Positions 14,731-54,759 of a stretch of 64,000 nucleotides of DNA are shown here, one piece after another. The first letter of the stretch is position 1, and every line of letters begins with the position of its first letter. Position numbers and translations under genes: made by a program. The DNA comes from Flavobacteriaceae bacterium (GTDB lineage Bacteria; Bacteroidota; Bacteroidia; Flavobacteriales; Flavobacteriaceae): assembly GCA_014238425.1 (NCBI GenBank), contig JABABD010000020.1, forward strand, positions 145,536 to 209,535, in the 5' to 3' direction. Below the pieces are notes generated by a model. It was not told the origin of the DNA. It searched no databases and saw nothing but the letters and a program-made list of their open reading frames with translations.

Positions 14731-14805
<75 letters not shown>

Positions 14806-24671: not shown

Positions 24672-25769
24672 ATGTTACAAACCCTTTCTATAGTATTAGC
24701 CGTATTATCATTGCTTTTTGCTATTTTCTTGTTTACAGTAAAAACAAAAAACAAATTAGGCAATGTGTTGCTTGGCCTTTATTTCGCGATAATGGCTGTA
24801 GATTTTAGTGCTTATATTAATATAGACATGCCTGTAAGTGTTGCTATGTTTAGGAATGATTTTGTGTCTCTAACATCTCGACCATTAATTTATCTGTATG
24901 TTTTATCTGTAATATATTCTGATTTTAAATTACATAAAAAGCATTTACTACATTTAAGTTGGTTAGCCATAGATCTAATCATTATGCTTCCTTTTTATTT
25001 AGGTGGTGAAAGTAAGCAATTAGAATTTTTCTCTAATTACCTAGATTTCCCTCAAGGTAAGTTCTTAATGCCTTTTAGTATGGTTCATACGCAGTTCTAT
25101 TTAACCTTGATTTTTATCACATTAATACAATACAAAAAAAAGCTTTTACAGAATTTTTCAAGCCCCAATCTGACAAATCACAAGTGGTTGTTGCAAATGA
25201 CTGTAATGCTACAAATTCTGTTCTTGTTTGTATTTACTAAGAATATACTAAGGTTTTTTTCATATGATTTTTCAGTTGTAGAAAACTCAAGAATTGCGAT
25301 GCTACTCTTTATTATTTTCTTTTTGTGCTGGTTATTAATGAAGGCACTACACGCACCTGAAATTTTTAGAGGAATTGATTCAAGATTAAAGTTATTTAAA
25401 GAAATTACTGAAGAAGAAAAGAAAAAGATAGCTCAAGAAGAAAAGGTTGAGAGTTTAAAAAGCTATATGAAAGAAAAAGAACCGTTCTTAAATGCCAACC
25501 TCACAATACAAAATTTAGCTGACCAAATGAGCCTTCCTGTTAGAGAACTCTCAATAATAATTAACTTTCATTTTAATCGTCATTTCTACGATTTTATAAA
25601 TTTCTATCGAATTGAAAAGGCGAAAAAACTATTGAAAGATCGTTCAAAACAAGACTTAATGGTCTTCGAAGTTTTTTATGATGTAGGTTTTAACTCAAAA
25701 TCATCTTTTAATACCGCATTTAAAAAGCATGTAGGTTTAACTCCGACACAATATCGAAAGTCTAGTTAA
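24672..25769 (+). CDS. Membrane-anchored AraC family transcriptional regulator
   Basis: About 6 N-terminal TM helices and a C-terminal AraC HTH (FYDVGFNSKSSFNTAFKKHVGLTPTQYR). Confidence 0.7.
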   Translation: MLQTLSIVLAVLSLLFAIFLFTVKTKNKLGNVLLGLYFAIMAVDFSAYINIDMPVSVAMFRNDFVSLTSRPLIYLYVLSVIYSDFKLHKKHLLHLSWLAIDLIIMLPFYLGGESKQLEFFSNYLDFPQGKFLMPFSMVHTQFYLTLIFITLIQYKKKLLQNFSSPNLTNHKWLLQMTVMLQILFLFVFTKNILRFFSYDFSVVENSRIAMLLFIIFFLCWLLMKALHAPEIFRGIDSRLKLFKEITEEEKKKIAQEEKVESLKSYMKEKEPFLNANLTIQNLADQMSLPVRELSIIINFHFNRHFYDFINFYRIEKAKKLLKDRSKQDLMVFEVFYDVGFNSKSSFNTAFKKHVGLTPTQYRKSS

Positions 25770-25912
25770 GTTAGGGGTTTACAACTATTCGAACCTCTAA
25801 AAAAATTATTCGAACCTTTTTTTGAGGAATAAATAAGTTCGAGTTCATTGATTCGAACTCATAAGCCTTTAATTAGTTTCAATTTTGATTTATCAATTAA
25901 AACATATAAATC

Positions 25913-27988
25913 ATGAAACATTTATTTCAGTACGTATTACTCATATTATTATTAGCTTCTTGTAATTCTTCCTCGCAGAACTATGATTTAGCATTAAAAG
26001 ACGTCACTATTTTTAATAGCAAGACTAAAGCACTAGAGGAAAATAAAACGATTCTGATTAAAGCAGATACCATTGCTTCAATAGTCGATTCTAATCAATC
26101 TTATAAAGCCAATAAAGTAATTGAAGGAAAAAATCGATTGGTAACACCTGGGTTTATTGATACGCATACTCATATAGGTGTTAATTATGGAGCAAATATA
26201 GATTATGCTAATTACGATTTAAAAACAGTGAACCTAGAAATGATTAGACGCTTAATGTCTTATCAATATCTAACTGAAGGTGTGACTACAATTATTGATA
26301 TGGGGCAACCAGAAAACTGGATGGATATCTCTTTGAACTGGCAAAATAATCCAACACCAAATTACCCGAATATGTATATCTGTGGTGGTTCCATTGTTTC
26401 TGATGAAGATCGTTGGCAACCAGCACACCACATTGAAGTGAAAAATCCAGAGGATGGAAGGCAAAAAGTAAGAGATTATGCAGCTAAGGGTTTAAAGCAT
26501 ATGAAACTCTATCGAAAATTAAAGAAACCTGATTATAAAGCTATGGTTGATGAGGCTAAAAAACATGACATCATCATCAATACACATGTAGATAATAATG
26601 TTGTGACAATTTCTGAAGCGATGGATTTTGGGGTTTTAAATTTTGAACATTTCTTCACAACAATCCCAAGCGTTCTTAATTACGACCACCATTGGAAAAA
26701 AATGAATAAAAAGTATGGCATAAAAATGAGTGGTGATATTGATGAATTTACTGCGCATATGGTATATTTCTTTAAATACATTAACGACAACCCAGACATA
26801 GAAGACAAGCTAGAAAAACTGTTTGATAGAATGGCTAAAGAAGGAGCTAACATTAGTACAGCAATTAATGTTTTAGCTTCAGCTCCTCAAAAAACAGACT
26901 TCTTTACCTCTTTTGAATACTTTCCGATACGCAATGCTCCAAATACTTCATACAACGCCAACCAAAAAGAAATATTAAATCAGGCTTTTGAAATGATGAT
27001 GAGTTACGTAAAAATGGCTCATGACAAAGGGGTAAAACTGCGTATAGGCACAGATTGTCGTTTTGGAGGTAAGTCTTTACTCCATGAACTTATTTTATTT
27101 GCCAAAGCAGGAATCTCTATTGAAGACGCTTTGCAAATCGCAACTATTAATGGTTATGAAGCCATGAAGATTGATGATAAATTTGGTTCAATTGAAGCTG
27201 GGAAAAAAGCAGACCTTGTGGTTTTTGACAAAAATCCTTTTGATGATTATAACAACTTTTTATCAGGAAAAACAATTATTAAGGACGGCCAAATATTAAA
27301 CTTAAAAAAATCTGTGTCTCACGATTTAGAAAAAGCAATGGTGTTTGAAGGTGTCGCAGCGGGTAAAAAACTATTCAACAGAGCCATAAATGATAGCAAT
27401 TACGAAAAGGTAGATGATAAGGAGCTTGAAAACGTTTTTTTAGAACTTCTTGCTACAGGAAAAACTGATGAAACCATTGCAACTTATAATCTATTCTTAG
27501 AATTTTTCCCTAATAAAAGCATAAAGATTGAAGACAATACTTTAGTCAATGCTGTTTATGCACTATTGAGAGAGAACGAAGTGGACAAGGCAATTTCATT
27601 TTCTGAATTTGCAGGAGCTCAGTTTCCAGAAGCCTTAAAAACACTGGCTCAAAAAACCTTAATCACCATGTTAAAAACTAATATTAATAATGGAATAGAA
27701 TATTTTAAAGCTCATAACAATGACTCTAAATATAGACTTGATGAAGCAGAAATGAATGGTGTTGGATATCTCCTTATTGAATTGAATAGGTTGGAAGAAA
27801 GCTTGACTATTTTTAAATTAAATGTAGAATCTTTCCCAGAATCTTGGAATGTGTATGATAGTTTAGGAGAAGCTTATACACTACTTAGGGAGAAGAAACT
27901 CGCTATTGAAAATTATGAAAAATCTATAAGTCTTAATCCGAAAAATGAAGTTGGTATAAAAGTCTTGAACAAACTAAAACAATATTAA
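25913..27988 (+). CDS. Lipoprotein amidohydrolase-family enzyme with a C-terminal TPR region
   Basis: Lipobox LLASCNS. Metal-dependent amidohydrolase motifs (GFIDTHTHIG ... HVDN ... DCRFGG ... DLVVFD). A C-terminal TPR-like ~220 aa region. Confidence 0.6.
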   Translation: MKHLFQYVLLILLLASCNSSSQNYDLALKDVTIFNSKTKALEENKTILIKADTIASIVDSNQSYKANKVIEGKNRLVTPGFIDTHTHIGVNYGANIDYANYDLKTVNLEMIRRLMSYQYLTEGVTTIIDMGQPENWMDISLNWQNNPTPNYPNMYICGGSIVSDEDRWQPAHHIEVKNPEDGRQKVRDYAAKGLKHMKLYRKLKKPDYKAMVDEAKKHDIIINTHVDNNVVTISEAMDFGVLNFEHFFTTIPSVLNYDHHWKKMNKKYGIKMSGDIDEFTAHMVYFFKYINDNPDIEDKLEKLFDRMAKEGANISTAINVLASAPQKTDFFTSFEYFPIRNAPNTSYNANQKEILNQAFEMMMSYVKMAHDKGVKLRIGTDCRFGGKSLLHELILFAKAGISIEDALQIATINGYEAMKIDDKFGSIEAGKKADLVVFDKNPFDDYNNFLSGKTIIKDGQILNLKKSVSHDLEKAMVFEGVAAGKKLFNRAINDSNYEKVDDKELENVFLELLATGKTDETIATYNLFLEFFPNKSIKIEDNTLVNAVYALLRENEVDKAISFSEFAGAQFPEALKTLAQKTLITMLKTNINNGIEYFKAHNNDSKYRLDEAEMNGVGYLLIELNRLEESLTIFKLNVESFPESWNVYDSLGEAYTLLREKKLAIENYEKSISLNPKNEVGIKVLNKLKQY

Positions 27989-28583
27989 ATTTGCAAATTA
28001 TATTCTAAAATGCGCATATTTGCAACACAAATGAAAAGAACTATAGTACATATTGCACCGAAATCACTGTGTAGTCAGTGGGATTATCGAGGAATGAATG
28101 AATTATTCTCTCGGTCAAGGACGTTATGTAGCTATTTTTAATCATTTTAGATGTGATTTAAACTCAAAAACTATAAATAGTACTAAGCGTCCAAGAAATT
28201 GGATGCTTTTTTTATGAAATATTTTAAAAAAATTGAATTTGAAATTTAAAATCTAAAATAAAGGCCATTGAAGAGTAAGCGATTGAGAGACAGTCCATTG
28301 CCAAAAACCTCTACTATCTGTTGAAAAACGGACAGGGATTCCTATATCAAATTTTAATCATAACTCATTGATCGTCAGTAAATTAAATTGATTTTTTATT
28401 TGTTTTTCTAAAAATAGTTTTCATCTTTGCATTGCAGTTTTAAAAACATAACTGCCATAAATATTTAATAATAAAAGCAAGAAGTCATGCGAGAGCATAA
28501 AGTAACATTTCAACCCATAAGTATTGACCTTGTGTCATTACAAAGACTTCGGTAGTATCTGTAGATAAATTTTCCAGATAAGA

Positions 28584-28619
28584 ATCCGAAGCAAAAACAA
28601 CTGTTTCGGATTTTTTTAT
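28584..28619 (+). terminator. Intrinsic terminator whose 5' arm can alternatively pair upstream
   Basis: ATCCGAAGC (10-nt loop) GTTTCGGAT plus T8. CCGAAG also pairs with CTTCGG at 28547-28552. Confidence 0.55.
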
Positions 28620-28709
28620 TCCCAACATTCAAGAATAGATTAATCAAAGCAGTTTTAAGAGCACACAAAGTGTGTGCCTTTAAGACAGTAACAACTATTG
28701 GATAGAATC

Positions 28710-29249
28710 ATGGAAAATAATTTACATAACAGCTATTTGCTTCAAGCAATGGATGCATATCCATATAACCTTGAAGAAACTTTGGAGGCTTTAAATTATG
28801 CTTTGTCATATAATGAAAAAGATGTCCACGCCTTATGCCTAATGGGTCGAGTATATGCAGAACAACTGAATGAATATGAAATCGCAAAGCAATATTTCGC
28901 CGAAGCCATGACACATAAGCTGGAAACGCCAAAAATATACTCGCATTATGTACAAACACTATTGTGGAATGATGATTTAGAAGCGGCTCAAAATTTATTG
29001 GATTTTGCAATGACTGTCAAAGGTGTCGACAAGGCTTTAATGCATTTGCTCCATGGTGTTTTGCTAGAAAAGCAAGCTGAGTATAAAGCGGCTAAAAAGG
29101 TTTTAAAAGCGGCAAACAAAATGGCGACAAATAACAATTTCATTTCATACGTGAAATCTGAAATATCAAGGATTGACAACAAAATCAAGCCTAAAAAGAA
29201 GAAGCGTAAGAAGAAAAAGAAGTCTAACAAAAAAAGAAAGGAGAAATAA
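28710..29249 (+). CDS. TPR-like protein with a poly-Lys/Arg tail
   Basis: The ORF track starts at TTG 28698; the first ATG (MENNLHNSYLL) is at 28710. The C-terminus is KPKKKKRKKKKKSNKKRKEK. Confidence 0.4.
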   Translation: MENNLHNSYLLQAMDAYPYNLEETLEALNYALSYNEKDVHALCLMGRVYAEQLNEYEIAKQYFAEAMTHKLETPKIYSHYVQTLLWNDDLEAAQNLLDFAMTVKGVDKALMHLLHGVLLEKQAEYKAAKKVLKAANKMATNNNFISYVKSEISRIDNKIKPKKKKRKKKKKSNKKRKEK

Positions 29250-29283
29250 AAATCGGCGAGTTTCAGCTTGCCGATTTCAAAAT
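29250..29283 (+). terminator. Intrinsic terminator
   Basis: AATCGGCGAGTTTCAGCTTGCCGATTTCAAAA. Confidence 0.6.
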
Positions 29284-29355
29284 GATATTGTAGTTCAATG
29301 GTAGAGCAAGTAGTTGTTAACTACAAGGTTGAAAGTTCGAGTTTTTCCAATATCG
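29284..29355 (+). tRNA. tRNA-Asn (GTT)
   Basis: GATATTG|TA|GTTC AATGGTA GAGC|A|AGTAG TTGTTAA CTACA|AGGTT|GAAAG TTCGAGT TTTTC|CAATATC|G. Confidence 0.8.
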
Positions 29356-29364
29356 CAATTAACT

Positions 29365-29445
29365 GGAAGTGTTGAGCAATTGGTTGGCTCGCCTGACTGT
29401 AAATCAGGTCTTAACGGCATGTAGGTTCGAGCCCTACCTCTTCCA
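29365..29445 (+). tRNA. tRNA-Tyr (GTA), long variable arm
   Basis: GGAAGTG..GAGC..GCTC|CCTGA CTGTAAA TCAGG|12-nt variable|GTAGG TTCGAGC CCTAC|CTCTTCC|A. Confidence 0.75.
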
Positions 29446-29450
29446 CAAAC

Positions 29451-29522
29451 GCGTCTATGGTGTAAAGGATAGCACAAGAGATTTCTAATCTCTAAGTCTA
29501 AGTTCGAATCTTAGTAGATATA
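29451..29522 (+). tRNA. tRNA-Arg (TCT)
   Basis: D arm GTGT AAAGGATA GCAC; anticodon arm AGAGA TTTCTAA TCTCT; T arm CTAAG TTCGAAT CTTAG. The acceptor stem has 1 mismatch and 2 wobbles. Confidence 0.65.
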
Positions 29523-29528
29523 CTTTAT

Positions 29529-29600
29529 GGTTCATTGGGGTAATGGCTATCCTTCCCGACTGTCTCTCGGGAGATACGAGTTCGATTCTCGTATGAACCG
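29529..29600 (+). tRNA. tRNA-Asp (GTC)
   Basis: GGTTCAT...CCCGA CTGTCTC TCGGG...ACGAG TTCGATT CTCGT|ATGAACC|G. Confidence 0.75.
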
Positions 29601-29607
29601 CAAAACA

Positions 29608-29694
29608 GGAAGGGCAATCAGATAGGTGACTGAAGCAATCTTGAAAATTGTCGAGCTTTAAAAGGCCTTGTGGGTTCGATTCCCACTCCTTCCG
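29608..29694 (+). tRNA. tRNA-Ser (TGA), class II (about 87 nt)
   Basis: GGAAGGG...anticodon arm GCAAT CTTGAAA ATTGT...T arm GTGGG TTCGATT CCCAC|TCCTTCC|G. The D-arm and variable-arm geometry are not fully canonical. Confidence 0.6.
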
Positions 29695-29700
29695 CAAAAC

Positions 29701-29786
29701 TGAGAGTAGGCAAATATTGGTTTGTTACGCTCACCTGCTAAGTGAGTTTGCCTTTTGGCAATGAAGGTTCAATTCCTTTGCTCTCC
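29701..29786 (+). tRNA. tRNA-Ser (GCT), class II
   Basis: GAGAGTA...CTCAC CTGCTAA GTGAG|variable hairpin TTGCC TTTT GGCAA|AAGG TTCAATT CCTT|TGCTCTC. Confidence 0.65.
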
Positions 29787-29793
29787 GCATAAT

Positions 29794-29866
29794 GCTCTAT
29801 TAGCATAGTGGTTTAGTGCACCTGACTTTCTATCAGGAGACAAGGGTTCGATTCCCTTATAGAGTT
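29794..29866 (+). tRNA. tRNA-Glu (TTC)
   Basis: GCTCTAT|TA|GCAT AGTGGTTTA GTGC|A|CCTGA CTTTCTA TCAGG|AGAC|AAGGG TTCGATT CCCTT|ATAGAGT|T. Confidence 0.8.
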
Positions 29867-29872
29867 CAAAAT

Positions 29873-29944
29873 TGAGGCATAGCTCAGCGGAAGAGTGTCA
29901 CTCTGATAAGGTGATAAGTTTAGGTTCGATTCCTAATGTCTCAA
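29873..29944 (+). tRNA. tRNA-Ile (GAT)
   Basis: TGAGGCA|TA|GCTC..GAGT|G|TCACT CTGATAA GGTGA|TAAGT|TTAGG TTCGATT CCTAA|TGTCTCA|A. First pair is U1-A72. Confidence 0.7.
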
Positions 29945-29954
29945 CTAAATATAA

Positions 29955-30028
29955 TGAGATGTAGCTTAATCCGGCAGAGCATCGCTCTCATAAAGCGAAA
30001 GGTCTAGGTTCGACTCCTAGCATCTTAA
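29955..30028 (+). tRNA. tRNA-Met (CAT), elongator or Ile2-lysidine type (not an initiator)
   Basis: TGAGATG|TA|GCTT AATCCGGCA GAGC|A|TCGCT CTCATAA AGCGA|AAGGT|CTAGG TTCGACT CCTAG|CATCTTA|A. Confidence 0.7.
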
Positions 30029-30033
30029 CAAAC

Positions 30034-30106
30034 GCAGGAATGGCGAAATGGTAAACGCGCTTGGCTTAGACCCAAGAGACTGAGAGTTCGAATCTCTCTT
30101 CCTGTA
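30034..30106 (+). tRNA. tRNA with Leu anticodon TAG but a class-I (short variable arm, 73 nt) structure
   Basis: GCAGGAA|TG|GCGA..ACGC|G|CTTGG CTTAGAC CCAAG|AGACT|GAGAG TTCGAAT CTCTC|TTCCTGT|A. Confidence 0.55.
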
Positions 30107-30112
30107 CTAAAT

Positions 30113-30186
30113 ACTCCACTAGCCCAAACGGAAGAGGCAATAGTTTTAAACGCTGTAAAGTCCAAGTTCGAATCTTGGGTGGAGTA
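30113..30186 (+). tRNA. tRNA-like gene with perfect acceptor and T arms but an unpaired anticodon arm (isotype undetermined; possible pseudo-tRNA)
   Basis: ACTCCAC...CCAAG TTCGAAT CTTGG|GTGGAGT|A. The anticodon region ATAGTTTTAAACGCTGT cannot form a 5-bp stem. Confidence 0.4.
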
Positions 30187-30192
30187 CAAAAT

Positions 30193-30264
30193 AAGCTTAT
30201 GGTGTAACGGATAGCACACAAGGCTACGAACCTTGGAGTATGAGTTCGAATCTTTTTAGGCTTA
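30193..30264 (+). tRNA. tRNA-Arg (ACG)
   Basis: AAGCTTA|TG|GTGT AACGGATA GCAC|A|CAAGG CTACGAA CCTTG|GAGT|ATGAG TTCGAAT CTTTT|TAGGCTT|A. The T stem is weak. Confidence 0.65.
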
Positions 30265-30270
30265 CGACAA

Positions 30271-30341
30271 TAACCTGTGGTGTAATGGTAGCATTCAAGA
30301 CTTTGAATCTTGAGGTAATGGTTCAAATCCATTCAGGTTAT
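30271..30341 (+). tRNA. tRNA-Gln (TTG)
   Basis: TAACCTG|TG|GTGT AATGGTA GCAT|T|CAAGA CTTTGAA TCTTG|AGGT|AATGG TTCAAAT CCATT|CAGGTTA|T. U1-A72 as in enterobacterial tRNA-Gln. Confidence 0.75.
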
Positions 30342-30343
30342 CT

Positions 30344-30416
30344 GGTGTCTATAGTGTAACTGCTCGCACGAGAGATTGTGGTTCTCTAGGATCAAGTTCG
30401 ACCCTTGATAGACACC
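30344..30416 (+). tRNA. tRNA-His (GTG) with encoded G-1
   Basis: G|GTGTCTA...AGAGA TTGTGGT TCTCT|AGGA|TCAAG TTCGACC CTTGA|TAGACAC|C. The 8-bp acceptor stem has G-1:C73. Confidence 0.8.
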
Positions 30417-30421
30417 CAAAC

Positions 30422-30494
30422 GGAACAGTAGCAAAGTTGGTCAATGCACCAGATTGAAGCTCTGGCGATACAGGTTCAATTCCTGTCTGTTTCA
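30422..30494 (+). tRNA. tRNA-Phe (GAA)
   Basis: GGAACAG|TA|GCA..TGC|A|CCAGA TTGAAGC TCTGG|CGATA|ACAGG TTCAATT CCTGT|CTGTTTC|A. Confidence 0.8.
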
Positions 30495-31439
30495 CTAATA
30501 CCTCTTTAGCTTAAAAGGAAGAGCTGTGGTAAAAGACTTTGGATCGTAGCCATGGAGTGATTGGAAGATGTTGTTAGCAACGCGCTTGCTAATGAATAGA
30601 ATTTGCAGAAGCACTGAAAACTGACAAGAACACGAGTAGGGAAGCGCATTTAGAGCCAATCTGTTCGCATCAGCGAAAGTATCAGTTCGAATCTGATAAG
30701 AGGTGCAAAATATTACAATATCAAGCTGGTCTTGTTGGGTGTTTCGGTATAGCACTATTGTATAAAGCATTGCAGGGATGCATTATGGTTTTATGTACAA
30801 CTAGACTTGAAGGTTTTGATTGTTAACCAAAAAACAATTACCAGTTCTATGGACATGGGTTCGATTCCCATTCTCATTTATTTGAGATAACTCAGTGGCT
30901 AGAGTAATAGATCAATGTTGCCGGTTCGAGTCCGGTCAAGATTTCAGAATCTTGTAACTCAATTGGTAGAGTGCTACACTTTTAACGTAGAGAAGGGATT
31001 TAGGAGATCCACCAAAGCTTATCATCTTGTAAAACTGATAGCTATGCAGTTGGTCACACTGCTCTAAAAAAAATGACAAAACAGTGGATTGCAAATCGGC
31101 TTTAATATCAATTAATTATTAGTGTTCGATATAAAAGCAATCTAGAGCGTACTTGACATATTGGTTTTCATTTGCTAGAGATAGTAACTGTTTTTTGTTC
31201 AGAAGAGAGATAAGCACCATTTAGTTGGTGTAAATCTCAAATCCCAACATTAAACATGAGCTGTTGAAGCTTTTGATACGAATATGTCCGTACAGGAAAG
31301 ATGATTTGTAATCTGCTGTTTTTATTTAAAAAAGAAACTAAAATATACTTCGAGAATCAATGAACTCGTCATTGCGGATTGAAGTCGGTAAGCCTTCCGT
31401 TACAGGAATTGCCACAACGCTCATAATGGGCAACAACAA
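30495..31439 (+). other. Gene-free ~950 bp field of tRNA-like fragments (degraded continuation of the array?)
   Basis: Isolated T-arm-like units TATCAG TTCGAAT CTGATA (30679-30697), CATGGG TTCGATT CCCAT (30855-30872), CCGG TTCGAGT CCGG (30921-30935). A D/anticodon-arm-like TAACTCAATTGGTAGAGTG CTACA CTTTTAA CGTAG (30954-30990, Lys TTT-like). No ORF of 60 aa or more with support. Confidence 0.4.
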
Positions 31440-32561
31440 ATGTTTAATCAAAAATTAGAAACAATGAAACGAGTAAGAATTAATGCAGGAAAAGTAGGTT
31501 TGGTCTTCAAACGTGGTGACTTCGTAAAAGTCATTAATCAAGGGACACACTGGCTATGGTTAAATCAACGCGTGTTGATGTATGACCTAGCAAACACCTT
31601 CGTAGCTCCAATAGCGTTAGAAATCTTGCTACAAGATGAAACGTTGGCGGCAATGCTAGAAGTTGTAGAAGTGAAAGACAGCGAAATCGTTTTGCTTTAC
31701 GAAAAGGGAAACTTTAAAACGGTGCTTTCAGCAGGACGTTATGTGTACTGGAAAGGTTTGATCCAACGAGAATTCGTTCGTGCAGACCTTAGCAAGATTT
31801 ATATTACCGAACAAATTAACAAAGCCTTGTTCAGTAATTACGAATTGAGCAAATACATCAAAGCCTTTGAGGTGGCTTCTTATGAGAAGGCAGTACTTAT
31901 GGTCGACGATGTATATACAAAGACGCTTGACGGCGGTACCTATAGGTTCTGGAGAAATGACACGACAATTAAAATTGCTAAAGCTGATTTGCGTCAACTG
32001 CAATTGGAAATTGCTGGTCAAGAATTGTTGACTAAAGACAAGGCGGCAATTCGTATCAACTTTTATACACAGTATAAAGTAACAGATATCGAAAAAGCCT
32101 TACTAGAAAACAAGGACTACGAAAAGCAATTATACATTGCTATGCAATTGGTGCTTCGTGCTTATGTGGGTACTTATACTTTGGATGAATTGTTAGAACG
32201 TAAAGACAATATTGCGGAAGCTGTATTTGAAGATGTAAAAATAAGCGCAGCCAAGTTAGGTGTTACTATTTTGAACACTGGTATTAGAGATGTTATCTTA
32301 ACTGGAGACATGAAAGATATCATGAACCAAGTATTGGTGGCTCAAAAGAAAGCACAGGCTAACATTATTACGAGACGAGAAGAAACAGCGTCTACACGTA
32401 GCTTGCTAAATACGGCAAAGTTGATGGAAGAGAATGACATGCTGTACAAGCTAAAAGAGATGGAGTACGTTGAAAAAATCGCTGACAAGATTGGCGAAAT
32501 CACGGTCTCTAGTAATGGTGGTGTTGTAACACAATTGAAAGAGATTTTCTCTGGAAAATAA
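31440..32561 (+). CDS. SPFH/band-7 domain protein with a ~170-aa N-terminal extension
   Basis: The C-terminal half (QELLTKDKAAIRINFYTQYKVTD...VLVAQKKAQANIITRREETASTRS) is a stomatin/HflKC-like SPFH fold. I did not recognise the N-terminal part. Confidence 0.65.
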   Translation: MFNQKLETMKRVRINAGKVGLVFKRGDFVKVINQGTHWLWLNQRVLMYDLANTFVAPIALEILLQDETLAAMLEVVEVKDSEIVLLYEKGNFKTVLSAGRYVYWKGLIQREFVRADLSKIYITEQINKALFSNYELSKYIKAFEVASYEKAVLMVDDVYTKTLDGGTYRFWRNDTTIKIAKADLRQLQLEIAGQELLTKDKAAIRINFYTQYKVTDIEKALLENKDYEKQLYIAMQLVLRAYVGTYTLDELLERKDNIAEAVFEDVKISAAKLGVTILNTGIRDVILTGDMKDIMNQVLVAQKKAQANIITRREETASTRSLLNTAKLMEENDMLYKLKEMEYVEKIADKIGEITVSSNGGVVTQLKEIFSGK

Positions 32562-54638: not shown

Positions 54639-54712
54639 GTGGTCCCACTTGGGCTCGAACCAAGGACCCTCTGATTATGAGTCAGATGCTCTAACCAACT
54701 GAGCTATGGGAC
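54639..54712 (-). tRNA. tRNA-Met (CAT), elongator-type or Ile2
   Basis: Reverse complement GGTCCCA|TA|GCTC AGTTGGTTA GAGC|A|TCTGA CTCATAA TCAGA|GGGTC|CTTGG TTCGAGC CCAAG|TGGGACC|A. It is not initiator-like. Confidence 0.85.
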
Positions 54713-54759
54713 CAAAAGTGGCTGCAATATTACCACATATTTTAAAACCTTACAAGCAT

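What the first reader, a model, noticed from the sequence alone, without database searches (positions are those of the whole stretch)
29284..30494. Ultra-compact 15-gene tRNA array
Fifteen tRNA-like genes (Asn, Tyr, Arg-TCT, Asp, Ser-TGA, Ser-GCT, Glu, Ile, Met, Leu-TAG, one undetermined, Arg-ACG, Gln, His, Phe) sit head-to-tail in 1.2 kb with 2-10-nt spacers. The only terminator lies upstream of the first gene. Flavobacterial tRNA genes are normally solitary or in small groups. Arrays this dense resemble phage (T4-like) tRNA clusters or the horizontally acquired tRNA array units reported in a minority of bacteria. The flanks are unusual too: ~700 bp of gene-free DNA and a K-rich TPR protein upstream, and ~950 bp of tRNA debris downstream. 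The array carries an incomplete, non-redundant isoacceptor set. Its paired anticodons (Ser TGA/GCT, Arg TCT/ACG) suggest it supplements decoding rather than duplicating core genes.
Basis: partly seen in the sequence, partly recalled or inferred. Interest (0 to 1): 0.75.

Follow-up and report, generated by a model that had tools for sequence, protein, structure and literature searches.

The report
tRNA array inside an RNA-repair locus
Fifteen real, tightly packed tRNA genes sit in a locus shared by a whole family of marine bacteria, next to tRNA-like RNAs and a protein that elsewhere accompanies RNA-repair enzymes, so they look like a spare tRNA set for times when normal tRNAs are damaged.

Summary
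ARAGORN and Rfam confirm 15 same-strand tRNA genes at 29284-30495 with 2-9-nt spacers. The 'undetermined' one is tRNA-Leu(UAA).

The array is not a private or recent acquisition. In 80 related genomes the same ordered array (0-19 genes) sits at the same place, between a small lysine-tailed TPR gene and a 365-aa SPFH/Band-7 ('slipin') gene.

The ~950 bp of 'debris' downstream is conserved, covarying tRNA-like RNA in four modules. Its core lies upstream of this slipin across Bacteroidota.

In 32 of the 80 loci the slipin gene lies near RtcB ligase, RlaP nucleotidyltransferases or a WYL regulator. The same holds, with RtcR in Citrobacter, in Clostridia-like, Myroides and E. coli records. This matches the Band-7/'b7a-tRNA' RNA-repair module predicted by Burroughs and Aravind (2016). 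In Anabaena, long tRNA arrays are already tied to rtcB and to a slipin operon.

The array tRNAs are diverged but keep their cloverleaves through many compensatory changes. They carry odd features: class-I tRNA-Leu, and U37 in every tRNA-Asp and tRNA-Glu.

Most likely this is a stress-induced spare tRNA set within an RNA-repair locus. It is a new variant of known kinds, and its function is untested.

The parts
28015..28697 (+). Conserved ORF-free region upstream of the TPR gene. It is preceded by a Bacteroidetes-type promoter match (TTG-N19-TAAATTTG, 27965-27993). It holds two intrinsic-terminator-like hairpins with T-runs, at 28185-28215 and about 28582-28618. It probably encodes one or two small RNAs or a regulatory leader.
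   Evidence: blastn finds it next to the TPR gene in about 50 of 80 loci at 70-80% identity over up to 700 nt. No ORF exceeds 52 aa. The promoter match is and the first terminator. The stretch 28495-28612 folds with 11 compensatory pairs among 20 sequences. There is no Rfam family match.
28698..29249 (+). Small TPR protein with a lysine-rich C-terminal tail. The ORF runs from TTG at 28698; the likely start is ATG at 28710. It is the conserved upstream partner of the array.
   Evidence: Weak Pfam TPR hits. tblastn finds it immediately upstream of the array or the tRNA-like RNA in about 65 of 80 loci, while the wider flanks are not conserved. There is no PADLOC hit.
29250..29277 (+). An 11-bp hairpin (AAATCGGCGAG / CTTGCCGATTT, loop TTTCAG) between the TPR stop codon and the first tRNA. 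There is no T-tract on the + strand, and only 6 nt separate it from tRNA-Asn.
   Evidence: Read directly from the sequence. The terminator scan does not list it. There is no room for a separate promoter, so co-transcription with the TPR gene is inferred.
29284..29356 (+). tRNA-Asn(GUU)
   Evidence: ARAGORN; Rfam tRNA 58.9 bits
29365..29446 (+). tRNA-Tyr(GUA), class II (long variable arm)
   Evidence: ARAGORN; Rfam 52.8 bits
29451..29523 (+). tRNA-Arg(UCU)
   Evidence: ARAGORN; Rfam 57.2 bits
29529..29601 (+). tRNA-Asp(GUC) with U at position 37 (loop CUGUCUC)
   Evidence: ARAGORN; Rfam 54.3 bits. All 43 array tRNA-Asp have U37.
29608..29695 (+). tRNA-Ser(UGA), class II
   Evidence: ARAGORN; the long-arm tRNA-Sec model scores 47 bits
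29702..29786 (+). tRNA-Ser(GCU), class II
   Evidence: ARAGORN; the long-arm model scores 30.7 bits. The family of 23 orthologues keeps its cloverleaf.
29794..29867 (+). tRNA-Glu(UUC) with U at position 37 (loop CUUUCUA)
   Evidence: ARAGORN; Rfam 65.7 bits. All 36 array tRNA-Glu have U37.
29873..29945 (+). tRNA-Ile(GAU), U1-A72
   Evidence: ARAGORN; Rfam 63.1 bits
29955..30029 (+). tRNA with anticodon CAU (elongator Met or Ile2), U1-A72. It is only about 0.6 identical to the window's other CAT tRNA at 54639.
   Evidence: ARAGORN; Rfam 65.4 bits; identities
30034..30107 (+). tRNA-Leu(UAG), class I (74 nt, no long variable arm), A73
   Evidence: ARAGORN; Rfam 71.7 bits. Conserved in 39 loci. 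84% identical to a tRNA of a T5-like Vibrio phage.
30113..30187 (+). tRNA-Leu(UAA), class I (75 nt), A73.
   Evidence: ARAGORN; Rfam 50.3 bits. Conserved in 34 loci.
30193..30265 (+). tRNA-Arg(ACG), A1-U72
   Evidence: ARAGORN; Rfam 53.8 bits
30271..30342 (+). tRNA-Gln(UUG), U1-A72
   Evidence: ARAGORN; Rfam 67 bits
30345..30417 (+). tRNA-His(GUG) with encoded G-1 and C73
   Evidence: ARAGORN; Rfam 48.1 bits; sequence read
30422..30495 (+). tRNA-Phe(GAA) with G37
   Evidence: ARAGORN; Rfam 68.4 bits; loop
30500..30706 (+). tRNA-like RNA 'module A', 207 nt. It has an acceptor stem ACCUCUU/AAGAGGU, a D-arm, a T-arm AUCAGUUCGAAUCUGAU, and a conserved insertion of about 120-130 nt where the anticodon arm would be.
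   Evidence: ARAGORN -i. Found in 20 loci, including a Cytophagales genome, at 70-87% identity with visible compensatory changes. Its single-sequence folding energy is not unusual.
30712..30885 (+). tRNA-like RNA 'core' (module B). It has a closing helix, a D-arm-like hairpin GUGUUUCGGUAUAGCAC, a long hairpin, an H-type pseudoknot, a T-arm GGGUUCGAUUCCC and a terminal hairpin.
   Evidence: Present in all 73 Flavobacteriaceae loci that have enough upstream sequence. In alignment A1, 95.6% of cells are paired, against 38-45% in the slid controls, and 26 of 45 pairs have compensatory changes. Covariance model R1 also finds it in Cytophagales and Myroides. There is no Rfam family match.
30886..31045 (+). 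tRNA-like modules C and D. They comprise a D-arm-like hairpin, a T-arm GCCGGUUCGAGUCCGGU and a closing hairpin, then a degenerate tRNA-Lys-like cloverleaf and a conserved hairpin UAUCA...UGAUA.
   Evidence: Sub-threshold Rfam hits: YrlA 36.7 bits at 30916-30972 and tRNA 27.2 bits at 30948-31021. Conserved in 27 loci, with 17 of 28 predicted pairs compensatory.
31046..31463 (+). Less conserved leader between the tRNA-like RNAs and the slipin start. It contains a conserved block at about 31283-31323.
   Evidence: Conservation profile over 74 sequences. The distance from the core to the slipin start is constrained to 563-992 nt, median about 720.
31464..32561 (+). SPFH/Band-7 'slipin family' protein of 365 aa. 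It has an N-terminal beta-rich domain of about 140 aa, an SPFH domain and C-terminal helices, and no evident membrane segment when the sequence is read by eye. The ORF as listed starts at 31440.

Best explanation
The 15 genes form a genuine polycistronic operon of functional but diverged tRNAs. The operon is one component of a conserved four-part module: a small K-tailed TPR protein, the tRNA array, several tRNA-like RNAs, and a soluble SPFH/Band-7 (slipin) protein. The slipin and its upstream tRNA-like RNA correspond to the Band-7/'b7a-tRNA' pair that comparative genomics places in RtcB-type RNA-repair systems. In Flavobacteriaceae a long tRNA array has been built into that module and then differentially lost or reshuffled, leaving 0-19 genes per genus.

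Shown: the genes, their conservation, their order, their covariation, and the gene neighbourhoods.

Inferred:
- The array is transcribed together with, or just after, the TPR gene and is cut into tRNAs by RNase P and RNase Z, with CCA added afterwards.
- It is supernumerary to a housekeeping set elsewhere in the genome.
- It is induced when tRNAs are damaged or translation is impaired.
- It supplies replacement tRNAs whose altered sequences (U37 in Asp and Glu, class-I Leu, non-G1 ends) may escape or soak up anticodon nucleases, while RtcB elsewhere religates broken RNA, with the slipin and tRNA-like RNAs acting as scaffold or cofactor.
For: The tRNAs are real. The same ordered array sits between the same TPR and slipin genes in 41 of 80 loci with 5 or more tRNAs, while the wider flanks differ. 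tRNA identity tracks slipin identity, rho 0.81.

The orthologous tRNA families are only 0.74-0.93 identical on average, yet they keep their cloverleaves. For example, 16 of 20 pairs in Phe and 18 of 21 in Gln show compensatory changes.

The array tRNAs diverge from housekeeping tRNAs. They are dispensable in sister genera that keep the TPR-RNA-slipin module without any array, such as L021, L034, L035 and L049.

The downstream RNAs are conserved and covary.

Same-side neighbours of the slipin gene are RtcB in 27 of the 80 loci, a WYL regulator in 20 and RlaP in 3. Ten of the 41 loci with large arrays carry RtcB. Distant homologues show the same company: Band-7 followed by RtcB in a Clostridia-like contig, WYL with Band-7 and two RlaP genes in Myroides, and RtcR with slipin and a nucleotidyltransferase in Citrobacter, with a sigma-54-like promoter (by eye) and a T-arm in the leader. 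A T-arm followed by a hairpin lies upstream of the slipin gene in every phylum sampled.

Literature. The Band-7 plus b7a-tRNA pair is predicted next to RtcB (10.1101/312249). L-array neighbourhoods include rtcB, and the Anabaena array is induced with rtcB under translational stress and aids survival (PMC8421152). The TrcR regulon holds the trn array, rtcB and the operon alr0739-alr0740 (hypothetical protein plus slipin) (PMC10272220).
Against: No RtcB, RlaP, WYL or RtcR homologue lies anywhere in this 64-kb window, so the link to repair rests on relatives.

No expression data exist for any of these loci.

The whole genome is not available, so redundancy with housekeeping tRNAs is inferred, not shown. 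One tRNA-Asp lineage, to which the window's copy belongs, is 95% conserved across genera and could be a sole copy.

U37 and the missing long arm in tRNA-Leu could mean that some members decode poorly or are not charged.

Orthology between this slipin and Anabaena alr0740 could not be tested. The original b7a-tRNA description could not be read.
Confidence: 0.55

Rival explanations
1. The tRNAs are not spare decoders. They act as decoys or sponges for tRNA-cleaving toxins, as substrates or cofactors held by a slipin assembly together with the tRNA-like RNAs, or as donors for non-ribosomal reactions.
For: Every tRNA-Asp and tRNA-Glu has U37, a position that is a purine in nearly all decoding tRNAs (the general rule is from established tRNA knowledge). 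Both tRNA-Leu lack the long variable arm. Neighbouring modules are tRNA mimics that cannot decode. The Anabaena authors themselves raise a sponge role and non-canonical roles. SPFH proteins are known to form large cage-like oligomers; the structural hits here are to stomatin, HflK/C and QmcA complexes.
Against: Anticodons and identity elements are kept across genera: G-1/C73 in His, A73 in Leu, long arms in Ser and Tyr, and U33 in nearly all. The anticodon set is the minimal one-per-box decoding set. That pattern is what selection for decoding would keep. In Anabaena the array tRNAs are reported as functional.
Confidence: 0.2
2. This is an ordinary housekeeping tRNA operon. The array, or part of it, holds the only genomic copies of these tRNAs, and its position next to the slipin gene is historical accident.
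For: The locus is conserved and appears vertically inherited. One tRNA-Asp lineage is 95% conserved. Single Tyr or Pro tRNAs persist at the site in genera that lost the rest.
Against: Many sister genera lack the array, or most of it, at this site and must encode Phe, Asp, Gln, Glu, Tyr, His and Asn tRNAs elsewhere. Sequence turnover is far faster than for the canonical CAT tRNA, which is 0.91-1.0 identical between genera against about 0.6 to the array copies. GC content is low, many members have non-G1 ends, and U37 and class-I Leu are atypical of housekeeping tRNAs. The slipin and tRNA-like RNA linkage extends across phyla.
Confidence: 0.1
3. The array is a recent horizontal acquisition from a phage or mobile element.
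For: Dense, non-redundant arrays are typical of phages and of laterally spread L-arrays. Class-I Leu-UAG is 84% identical to a tRNA of Vibrio phage VspSw_1, where a class-I Leu-UAA also follows it. The GC content of the array region (about 0.41) is above its surroundings only because tRNAs are GC-richer than this genome.
Against: The same site, order and flanking genes recur across more than 20 genera, and identity follows the host-gene tree. No integrase or phage genes lie in the flanks. No slipin relative was found in IMG/VR by a two-pattern scan. No phage record matches more than one tRNA. Other members are only 0.58-0.69 identical to the tRNAs in the five IMG/VR viral loci that were fetched through a Leu-UAG pattern.
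Confidence: 0.07
4. The array is a decaying relic with no present function.
For: Content varies from 0 to 19 genes. Gaps inside arrays of other loci suggest eroded members. Odd anticodons appear in other loci, namely AUA, UUA and AAA.
Against: All 15 members in this window score as good tRNAs. Stems are maintained by compensatory substitutions over long divergence, which requires selection. Spacing and order are preserved.
Confidence: 0.05

Closest known systems
[quoted passage not shown] PCC 7120 (Santamaria-Gomez et al. 2021, PMC8421152; Wang et al. 2023, PMC10272220)
   Same: It is a long, non-periodic array on one strand with very short spacers. It carries a minimal one-per-codon-box anticodon set. 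Its members are diverged from housekeeping tRNAs. Its neighbourhood or regulon includes rtcB and a slipin gene. Such arrays are reported to occur in Bacteroidetes.
   Different: Here the array sits at one conserved chromosomal site across a bacterial family and tracks a host gene, rather than being patchily distributed by lateral transfer. It has 15 genes. It is physically fused to a TPR gene, tRNA-like RNAs and a slipin gene. No HNH endonuclease lies beside it. Its regulation is unknown.
[quoted passage not shown]
   Same: An SPFH/Band-7 protein is preceded by a tRNA-like non-coding RNA. The same protein family sits next to RtcB, RlaP, WYL or RtcR genes in relatives and in other phyla.
   Different: In this window no ligase or regulator is adjacent. 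There are at least four tRNA-like modules rather than one. A full array of authentic tRNAs and a TPR gene are inserted upstream. Whether the published b7a-tRNA equals module A, the core, or neither could not be checked.
Rsr (Ro60) with the YrlA Y RNA and the rtcBA operon of Salmonella
   Same: A tRNA-mimicking RNA is paired with a scaffold protein in an RNA-repair context. Modules here give partial YrlA-model hits of 28-41 bits.
   Different: The Rfam YrlA threshold of 69 bits is not reached. No Ro60/TROVE gene is present. The partner protein is SPFH, not Ro60.
Phage tRNA clusters (T4-like and T5-like)
   Same: The cluster is dense, the tRNAs have non-canonical features, and a pair of class-I Leu-UAG and Leu-UAA genes is also seen in a T5-like Vibrio phage.
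   Different: The array is not in a phage or prophage. It shows no collinear similarity to any phage cluster. CCA is not encoded here, whereas it is in the phage copies. The array is anciently resident in the host chromosome.

Membership tests
L-array (Santamaria-Gomez et al. 2021) | Many tRNA genes in the same orientation, close enough to be one operon | tested here: met
   15 genes on the + strand with spacers of 2-9 nt
L-array (Santamaria-Gomez et al. 2021) | Long and non-periodic, unlike accretive arrays | tested here: met
   15 different anticodons with no repeated unit
L-array (Santamaria-Gomez et al. 2021) | Supernumerary to a complete housekeeping set | not testable with these tools
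   The whole genome is not available. Indirect support comes from sister genera that lack the array and from the array CAT tRNA being about 0.6 identical to the window's other CAT tRNA.
L-array (Santamaria-Gomez et al. 2021) | Sprinkled phylogenetic distribution indicating lateral transfer | tested here: not met
   The site, order and flanks are the same in most genera sampled, and tRNA identity follows slipin identity, rho 0.81. Only the content is patchy.
L-array (Santamaria-Gomez et al. 2021) | Neighbourhood enriched in RNA-processing genes such as rtcB | tested here: inconclusive
   Absent from this window. RtcB is present in 10 of the 41 related loci with large arrays.
tRNA array unit (Tran et al. 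2016) | At least 20 tRNA genes | tested here: not met
   15 genes. The definition is quoted.
tRNA array unit (Tran et al. 2016) | At least 2 tRNA genes per kb | tested here: met
   12.4 per kb
Band-7/b7a-tRNA RNA-repair module (Burroughs and Aravind 2016) | SPFH/Band-7 domain protein | tested here: met
Band-7/b7a-tRNA RNA-repair module (Burroughs and Aravind 2016) | Adjacent tRNA-like non-coding RNA | tested here: met
   Four conserved, covarying tRNA-like modules lie upstream. A T-arm followed by a hairpin lies upstream of homologues in five phyla.
Band-7/b7a-tRNA RNA-repair module (Burroughs and Aravind 2016) | Encoded next to an RNA ligase (RtcB) or other repair genes | tested here: not met
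   None in the 64-kb window. The feature is met in 32 of 80 related loci and in Clostridia-like, Myroides and Citrobacter homologues.
Band-7/b7a-tRNA RNA-repair module (Burroughs and Aravind 2016) | The RNA is the same family as the published b7a-tRNA | not testable with these tools
   The paper is not held. No Rfam family exists for it.
Phage tRNA cluster | Lies in a phage or prophage genome | tested here: not met
   The flanks are RecJ, an amidohydrolase, an M28 peptidase, UDG and GH20. No slipin relative was found in IMG/VR by a two-pattern scan.
Phage tRNA cluster | Collinear similarity to a phage cluster | tested here: not met
   At most one tRNA matches per phage record.
Y RNA (YrlA) with Rsr | Match to the Rfam YrlA model at its gathering score | tested here: not met
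   36.7 bits against 69
Y RNA (YrlA) with Rsr | Adjacent Ro60/TROVE gene | tested here: not met
   None among the ten flanking genes scanned

The most novel reading that the evidence does not exclude
The TPR protein, the array, the tRNA-like RNAs and the slipin form one ribonucleoprotein system. In this reading a soluble SPFH assembly, guided by tRNA-mimic RNAs, handles damaged or spare tRNAs. The array tRNAs have been selected (U37 in Asp and Glu, class-I Leu, altered loops and ends) to resist or titrate anticodon nucleases used in bacterial and phage conflicts. That would make it a chromosomal, family-wide counterpart of the nuclease-evading tRNAs of phages, coupled to RNA repair.
Probability: 0.2. 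Interest if true: 0.8.

Novelty: new variant of a known kind. Interest (0 to 1): 0.55.

Why it matters
What long bacterial tRNA arrays are for is still open, and experimental data come mainly from the Anabaena array. Here an array is physically built into an RNA-repair-type module (Band-7 protein plus tRNA-like RNA, with RtcB, RlaP and WYL genes in many relatives) across a whole bacterial family. Natural variants range from 0 to 19 tRNAs. That gives independent genomic support for the idea that such arrays belong to the response to tRNA damage. It also offers a ready comparative series for experiments. In addition, the work turns a stretch read as 'debris' into at least four conserved structured RNAs that Rfam does not hold. 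It flags tRNA features that would interest tRNA biochemists: U37 in all tRNA-Asp and tRNA-Glu, and class-I tRNA-Leu.

Tried and rejected
- **Phage or mobile origin.** blastn against 50,697 phage records gave only single-tRNA hits. The slipin profile found no relative in IMG/VR, though the scan used only two peptide patterns. The core-RNA motif gave four chance hits there, without tRNAs or a slipin gene.
- **Known RNA family for the 'debris'.** Rfam gave nothing at gathering scores, and only sub-threshold YrlA, tRNA and tmRNA T-arm hits.
- **Small protein genes in the two non-coding flanks.** No ORF exceeds 52 aa upstream, and only short ORFs without conservation support lie downstream.
- **Anti-phage defence system.** PADLOC gave no hit for the slipin or the TPR protein.
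- **Identifying the source genome.** The TPR protein is not on record. The best slipin match is 91% identical.
- **Reading Burroughs and Aravind 2016.** The paper is not held.
- **Testing orthology with Anabaena alr0740.** No way was found to obtain that sequence. The best 150 representatives that could be named were mostly Bacteroidota, plus Clostridia and Planctomycetota.
- **Module A as a tRNA with an intron.** A 117-nt insert is too short for a group I intron, the only kind known in bacterial tRNA genes, and the insert itself is conserved. I read it as a tRNA-like RNA instead.

Full report
**1. The observation**

ARAGORN reports 15 tRNA genes on the + strand from 29284 to 30495. The only other tRNAs in the 64-kb window are Ala-GGC at 14731 and Met-CAT at 54639. 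The 'undetermined' member is tRNA-Leu(UAA) at 30113-30187.

Thirteen members pass the Rfam tRNA gathering score at 48-72 bits. The two long-arm tRNA-Ser match the long-arm tRNA-Sec model instead. Spacers are 2-9 nt.

None of the genes encodes a full CCA. Each discriminator base is followed by C and then an A-rich spacer. tRNA-His keeps G-1 and C73, both tRNA-Leu keep A73, and Ser and Tyr keep long variable arms.

**2. Unusual features of the tRNAs**

- Both tRNA-Leu are class I, at 74 and 75 nt without the long variable arm.
- Array tRNAs average 45% GC, against 53-59% for the two other tRNAs in the window. Across all arrays, 39% do not start with G.
- The array's CAT tRNA is about 0.6 identical to the window's other CAT tRNA. 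That other tRNA is 0.91-1.0 identical between genera. The two may be different kinds of CAT tRNA, so this comparison is only indicative.
- All 43 array tRNA-Asp and all 36 array tRNA-Glu, across all loci, have U at position 37. Twenty-eight of 44 tRNA-Phe have G37. Position 37 is a purine in nearly all known tRNAs; this rests on established tRNA knowledge, not on a test done here.

**3. Related genomes**

Using the downstream SPFH protein as a probe, I fetched 80 loci from GTDB species genomes. They cover many Flavobacteriaceae genera plus four Cytophagales. The best match is 89% identical, or 91% in the protein collection, so the source species itself is not represented.

Most loci carry a same-strand tRNA array just upstream of the SPFH gene. 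Forty-one have 5 or more tRNAs, and the range is 0-19. Gene order is conserved... Tyr, Asp, Glu..., Leu-UAG, Leu-UAA, Arg-ACG, Gln, His, Phe. Content varies.

The small K-tailed TPR gene lies immediately upstream in about 65 loci. RecJ, CMD, UDG and the other window flanks are shared only by five close relatives. The unit that travels together is therefore TPR, array, non-coding stretch, SPFH gene. It persists without any tRNA in several genera, for example L021, L034, L035 and L049.

Mean identity of shared tRNAs to the window's copies follows SPFH identity (Spearman 0.81). Several tRNAs (Asp, Tyr, Glu, His, Gln, Lys) exist as two paralogous lineages with patchy distribution, and L050 holds both Asp lineages. 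The simplest reading is a larger ancestral array followed by differential loss, not recent import.

Within each orthologous family, mean identity is only 0.74-0.93. The cloverleaf is nevertheless kept by many compensatory changes, for example 16 of 20 pairs in Phe and 18 of 21 in Gln. The tRNAs are therefore under selection for structure.

**4. The 'debris'**

The 945 nt between tRNA-Phe and the SPFH ORF are conserved at the DNA level.

- **Core.** A stretch of about 165 nt (30712-30885) occurs in all 73 Flavobacteriaceae loci that have upstream sequence, 563-992 nt before the SPFH start. A 62-sequence alignment supports a closing helix, a D-arm-like hairpin, a long hairpin, an H-type pseudoknot and a T-arm. 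Of the cells, 95.6% are paired, against 38-45% when partners are slid. Twenty-six of 45 pairs have changes on both sides, and no shuffle out of 500 reaches the observed values.
- **Module A.** This 207-nt tRNA-like RNA (30500-30706) has acceptor, D and T arms and a conserved insertion. It occurs in 20 loci, including one Cytophagales genome.
- **Modules C and D.** The stretch 30886-31045 contains another T-arm and a degenerate tRNA-Lys-like cloverleaf. It is conserved in 27 loci, with 17 of 28 predicted pairs compensatory.

Rfam has no family for any of these. There are only sub-threshold YrlA, tRNA and tmRNA hits on the T-arm regions. A covariance model of the core finds it upstream of the SPFH gene in all four Cytophagales loci (29-53 bits) and in Myroides (43.5 bits).

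**5. What the SPFH protein is**

The protein is a 365-aa 'slipin family protein'. It has an N-terminal beta-rich domain, an SPFH domain and C-terminal helices. A full-length family exists, with 490 representatives at E below 1e-30. Those that could be named are mostly Bacteroidota, with some Clostridia and Planctomycetota.

Gene contexts of homologues:

| Source | Context |
|---|---|
| Myroides | divergent WYL regulator, 700-nt gap, slipin, 742-aa protein, two RlaP nucleotidyltransferases |
| Clostridia-like contig | WYL, gap, slipin, RtcB |
| Phaeocystidibacter | divergent WYL, gap, slipin |
| Citrobacter freundii | rtcR (divergent), about 450-nt gap, slipin, nucleotidyltransferase |
| E. coli record | slipin, nucleotidyltransferase |

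Each of the four gaps checked, and the Citrobacter leader, holds a canonical T-arm followed by a hairpin 130-390 nt before the slipin start. The Citrobacter gap also holds what looks by eye like a sigma-54 promoter.

Among the 80 loci themselves, tblastn finds RtcB in 27, the WYL regulator in 20 and RlaP in 3, always on the expected side. Ten of the 41 loci with large arrays have RtcB. The fullest layout is WYL(-), RtcB, TPR, array, tRNA-like RNAs, slipin, then RtcB or RlaP. The window itself holds none of these repair genes.

**6. Comparison with what is known**

A bioRxiv paper from the Wolin and Xiong laboratories summarises Burroughs and Aravind (2016). In some bacteria RtcB lies next to a Band-7 protein and a predicted 'band 7-associated tRNA', thought to play the part that YrlA plays for Ro60. 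I could not read the original paper. My recollection of its abstract agrees: SPFH/Band-7 modules with 'a novel tRNA-like molecule' as scaffolding cofactors of RNA repair.

Santamaria-Gomez et al. (2021) define L-arrays and report them in Bacteroidetes among seven phyla. They find rtcB in L-array neighbourhoods. They also show that the Anabaena array is induced together with rtcB under translational stress and aids survival.

Wang et al. (2023) show that the repressor TrcR controls that array, rtcB, and the operon alr0739-alr0740, which encodes a hypothetical protein and a slipin family protein.

The present locus joins these two known things physically, and does so across a bacterial family. 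I found no paper describing tRNA arrays inside the Band-7 module, the TPR partner, the multi-module RNA, the class-I Leu pair or U37. The searchable library is incomplete, however.

**7. Phage link**

No phage record shares more than one tRNA with the array. No slipin relative was found in IMG/VR, although that scan used only two peptide patterns. A scan for the 3' half of class-I Leu-UAG did find it in a T5-like Vibrio phage, at 84% identity and followed by a class-I Leu-UAA. Other members are only 0.58-0.69 identical to the tRNAs in the five viral loci fetched through that pattern. An old phage contribution to part of the array is possible. A recent acquisition is not supported.

**8. Mechanism**

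Shown: real tRNAs, conserved order and structure, conserved tRNA-like RNAs, and repair-gene neighbourhoods in relatives.

Inferred:
- Only 34 nt, filled by a hairpin without a T-tract, separate the TPR stop codon from tRNA-Asn, and no terminator follows within the array. Hence the array is probably co-transcribed with TPR and processed by RNase P, RNase Z and the CCA-adding enzyme.
- Sister genera do without the array, so it is probably supernumerary.
- By analogy with Anabaena and with RtcR-controlled homologues, it is probably induced on tRNA damage or translational stress. It would then supply replacement tRNAs, possibly nuclease-resistant, or decoys.

I put about 0.55 on this overall reading. 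I put about 0.9 on the array being functional and belonging to the Band-7/tRNA-like RNA module.

**9. Verdict**

The finding is real and more interesting in its context than in itself. It is a new variant of known kinds (an L-array within a Band-7/b7a-tRNA module), not a new kind. Function is untested, and redundancy with the housekeeping set is unproven.

Noticed in passing
window 28015-28697: The roughly 700-bp ORF-free stretch upstream of the TPR gene is conserved at 70-80% identity in about 50 related loci. It holds two terminator-like hairpins with T-runs (28185-28215 and about 28582-28618) after a Bacteroidetes-type promoter match at 27965-27993. It probably encodes one or two small RNAs belonging to the module. 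The stretch 28495-28612 shows 11 compensatory pairs.
   Followed up: partly
window 29529-29601 and 29794-29867; all array loci: Every array tRNA-Asp (43 of 43) and tRNA-Glu (36 of 36) has U at position 37, next to the anticodon, where tRNAs almost always have a purine. Many tRNA-Phe have G37.
   Followed up: partly
window 30034-30187; L093 7791-7979: The pair of class-I (short) tRNA-Leu genes, UAG then UAA, is conserved in more than 30 arrays. It also occurs, with encoded CCA, in T5-like Vibrio phage VspSw_1. The Leu-UAG copies are 84% identical.
   Followed up: partly
L013 9013-9084; 11 loci such as L012 8953-9023: In one Winogradskyella array the Gln-UUG slot holds a tRNA with anticodon UUA, a potential ochre suppressor. 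Eleven arrays have a 71-72-nt tRNA-like gene with loop GUAUAUC ('Tyr-AUA') between His and Phe.
   Followed up: no
window 31440-31464: The slipin ORF as listed starts at ATG 31440. All homologues are 365-366 aa, so the true start is probably the second ATG at 31464.
   Followed up: yes
window 24672-27988 versus L004 6506-7826: In Gaetbulibacter sp. S0825 the CMD-family gene directly abuts the conserved upstream non-coding region. The AraC-family gene and the amidohydrolase-TPR gene of this window are therefore an insertion here, or a deletion there.
   Followed up: no
L096 6660-6850 (Citrobacter freundii NZ_CP151862.1); L095 (E. coli CP061233.1): Enterobacterial homologues of the slipin lie in an rtcR-slipin-nucleotidyltransferase arrangement. 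The leader shows what looks by eye like a sigma-54 promoter (TGGCACGCTTCTGGCA), then a T-arm (GGGTTCGATTCCC) and a hairpin. ARAGORN and Rfam report nothing there.
   Followed up: partly
L034, L040, L041, L049, L030: Several Tenacibaculum and Polaribacter-type loci carry two RtcB paralogues upstream of the TPR gene and have no tRNA array at all. This suggests that the array and extra ligase copies may be alternative elaborations of the same module.
   Followed up: no
window 14731-14805 and 54639-54713: Two ordinary stand-alone tRNAs on the - strand, Ala-GGC and a CAT-anticodon tRNA, serve as the only housekeeping comparators available in the window.
   Followed up: yes
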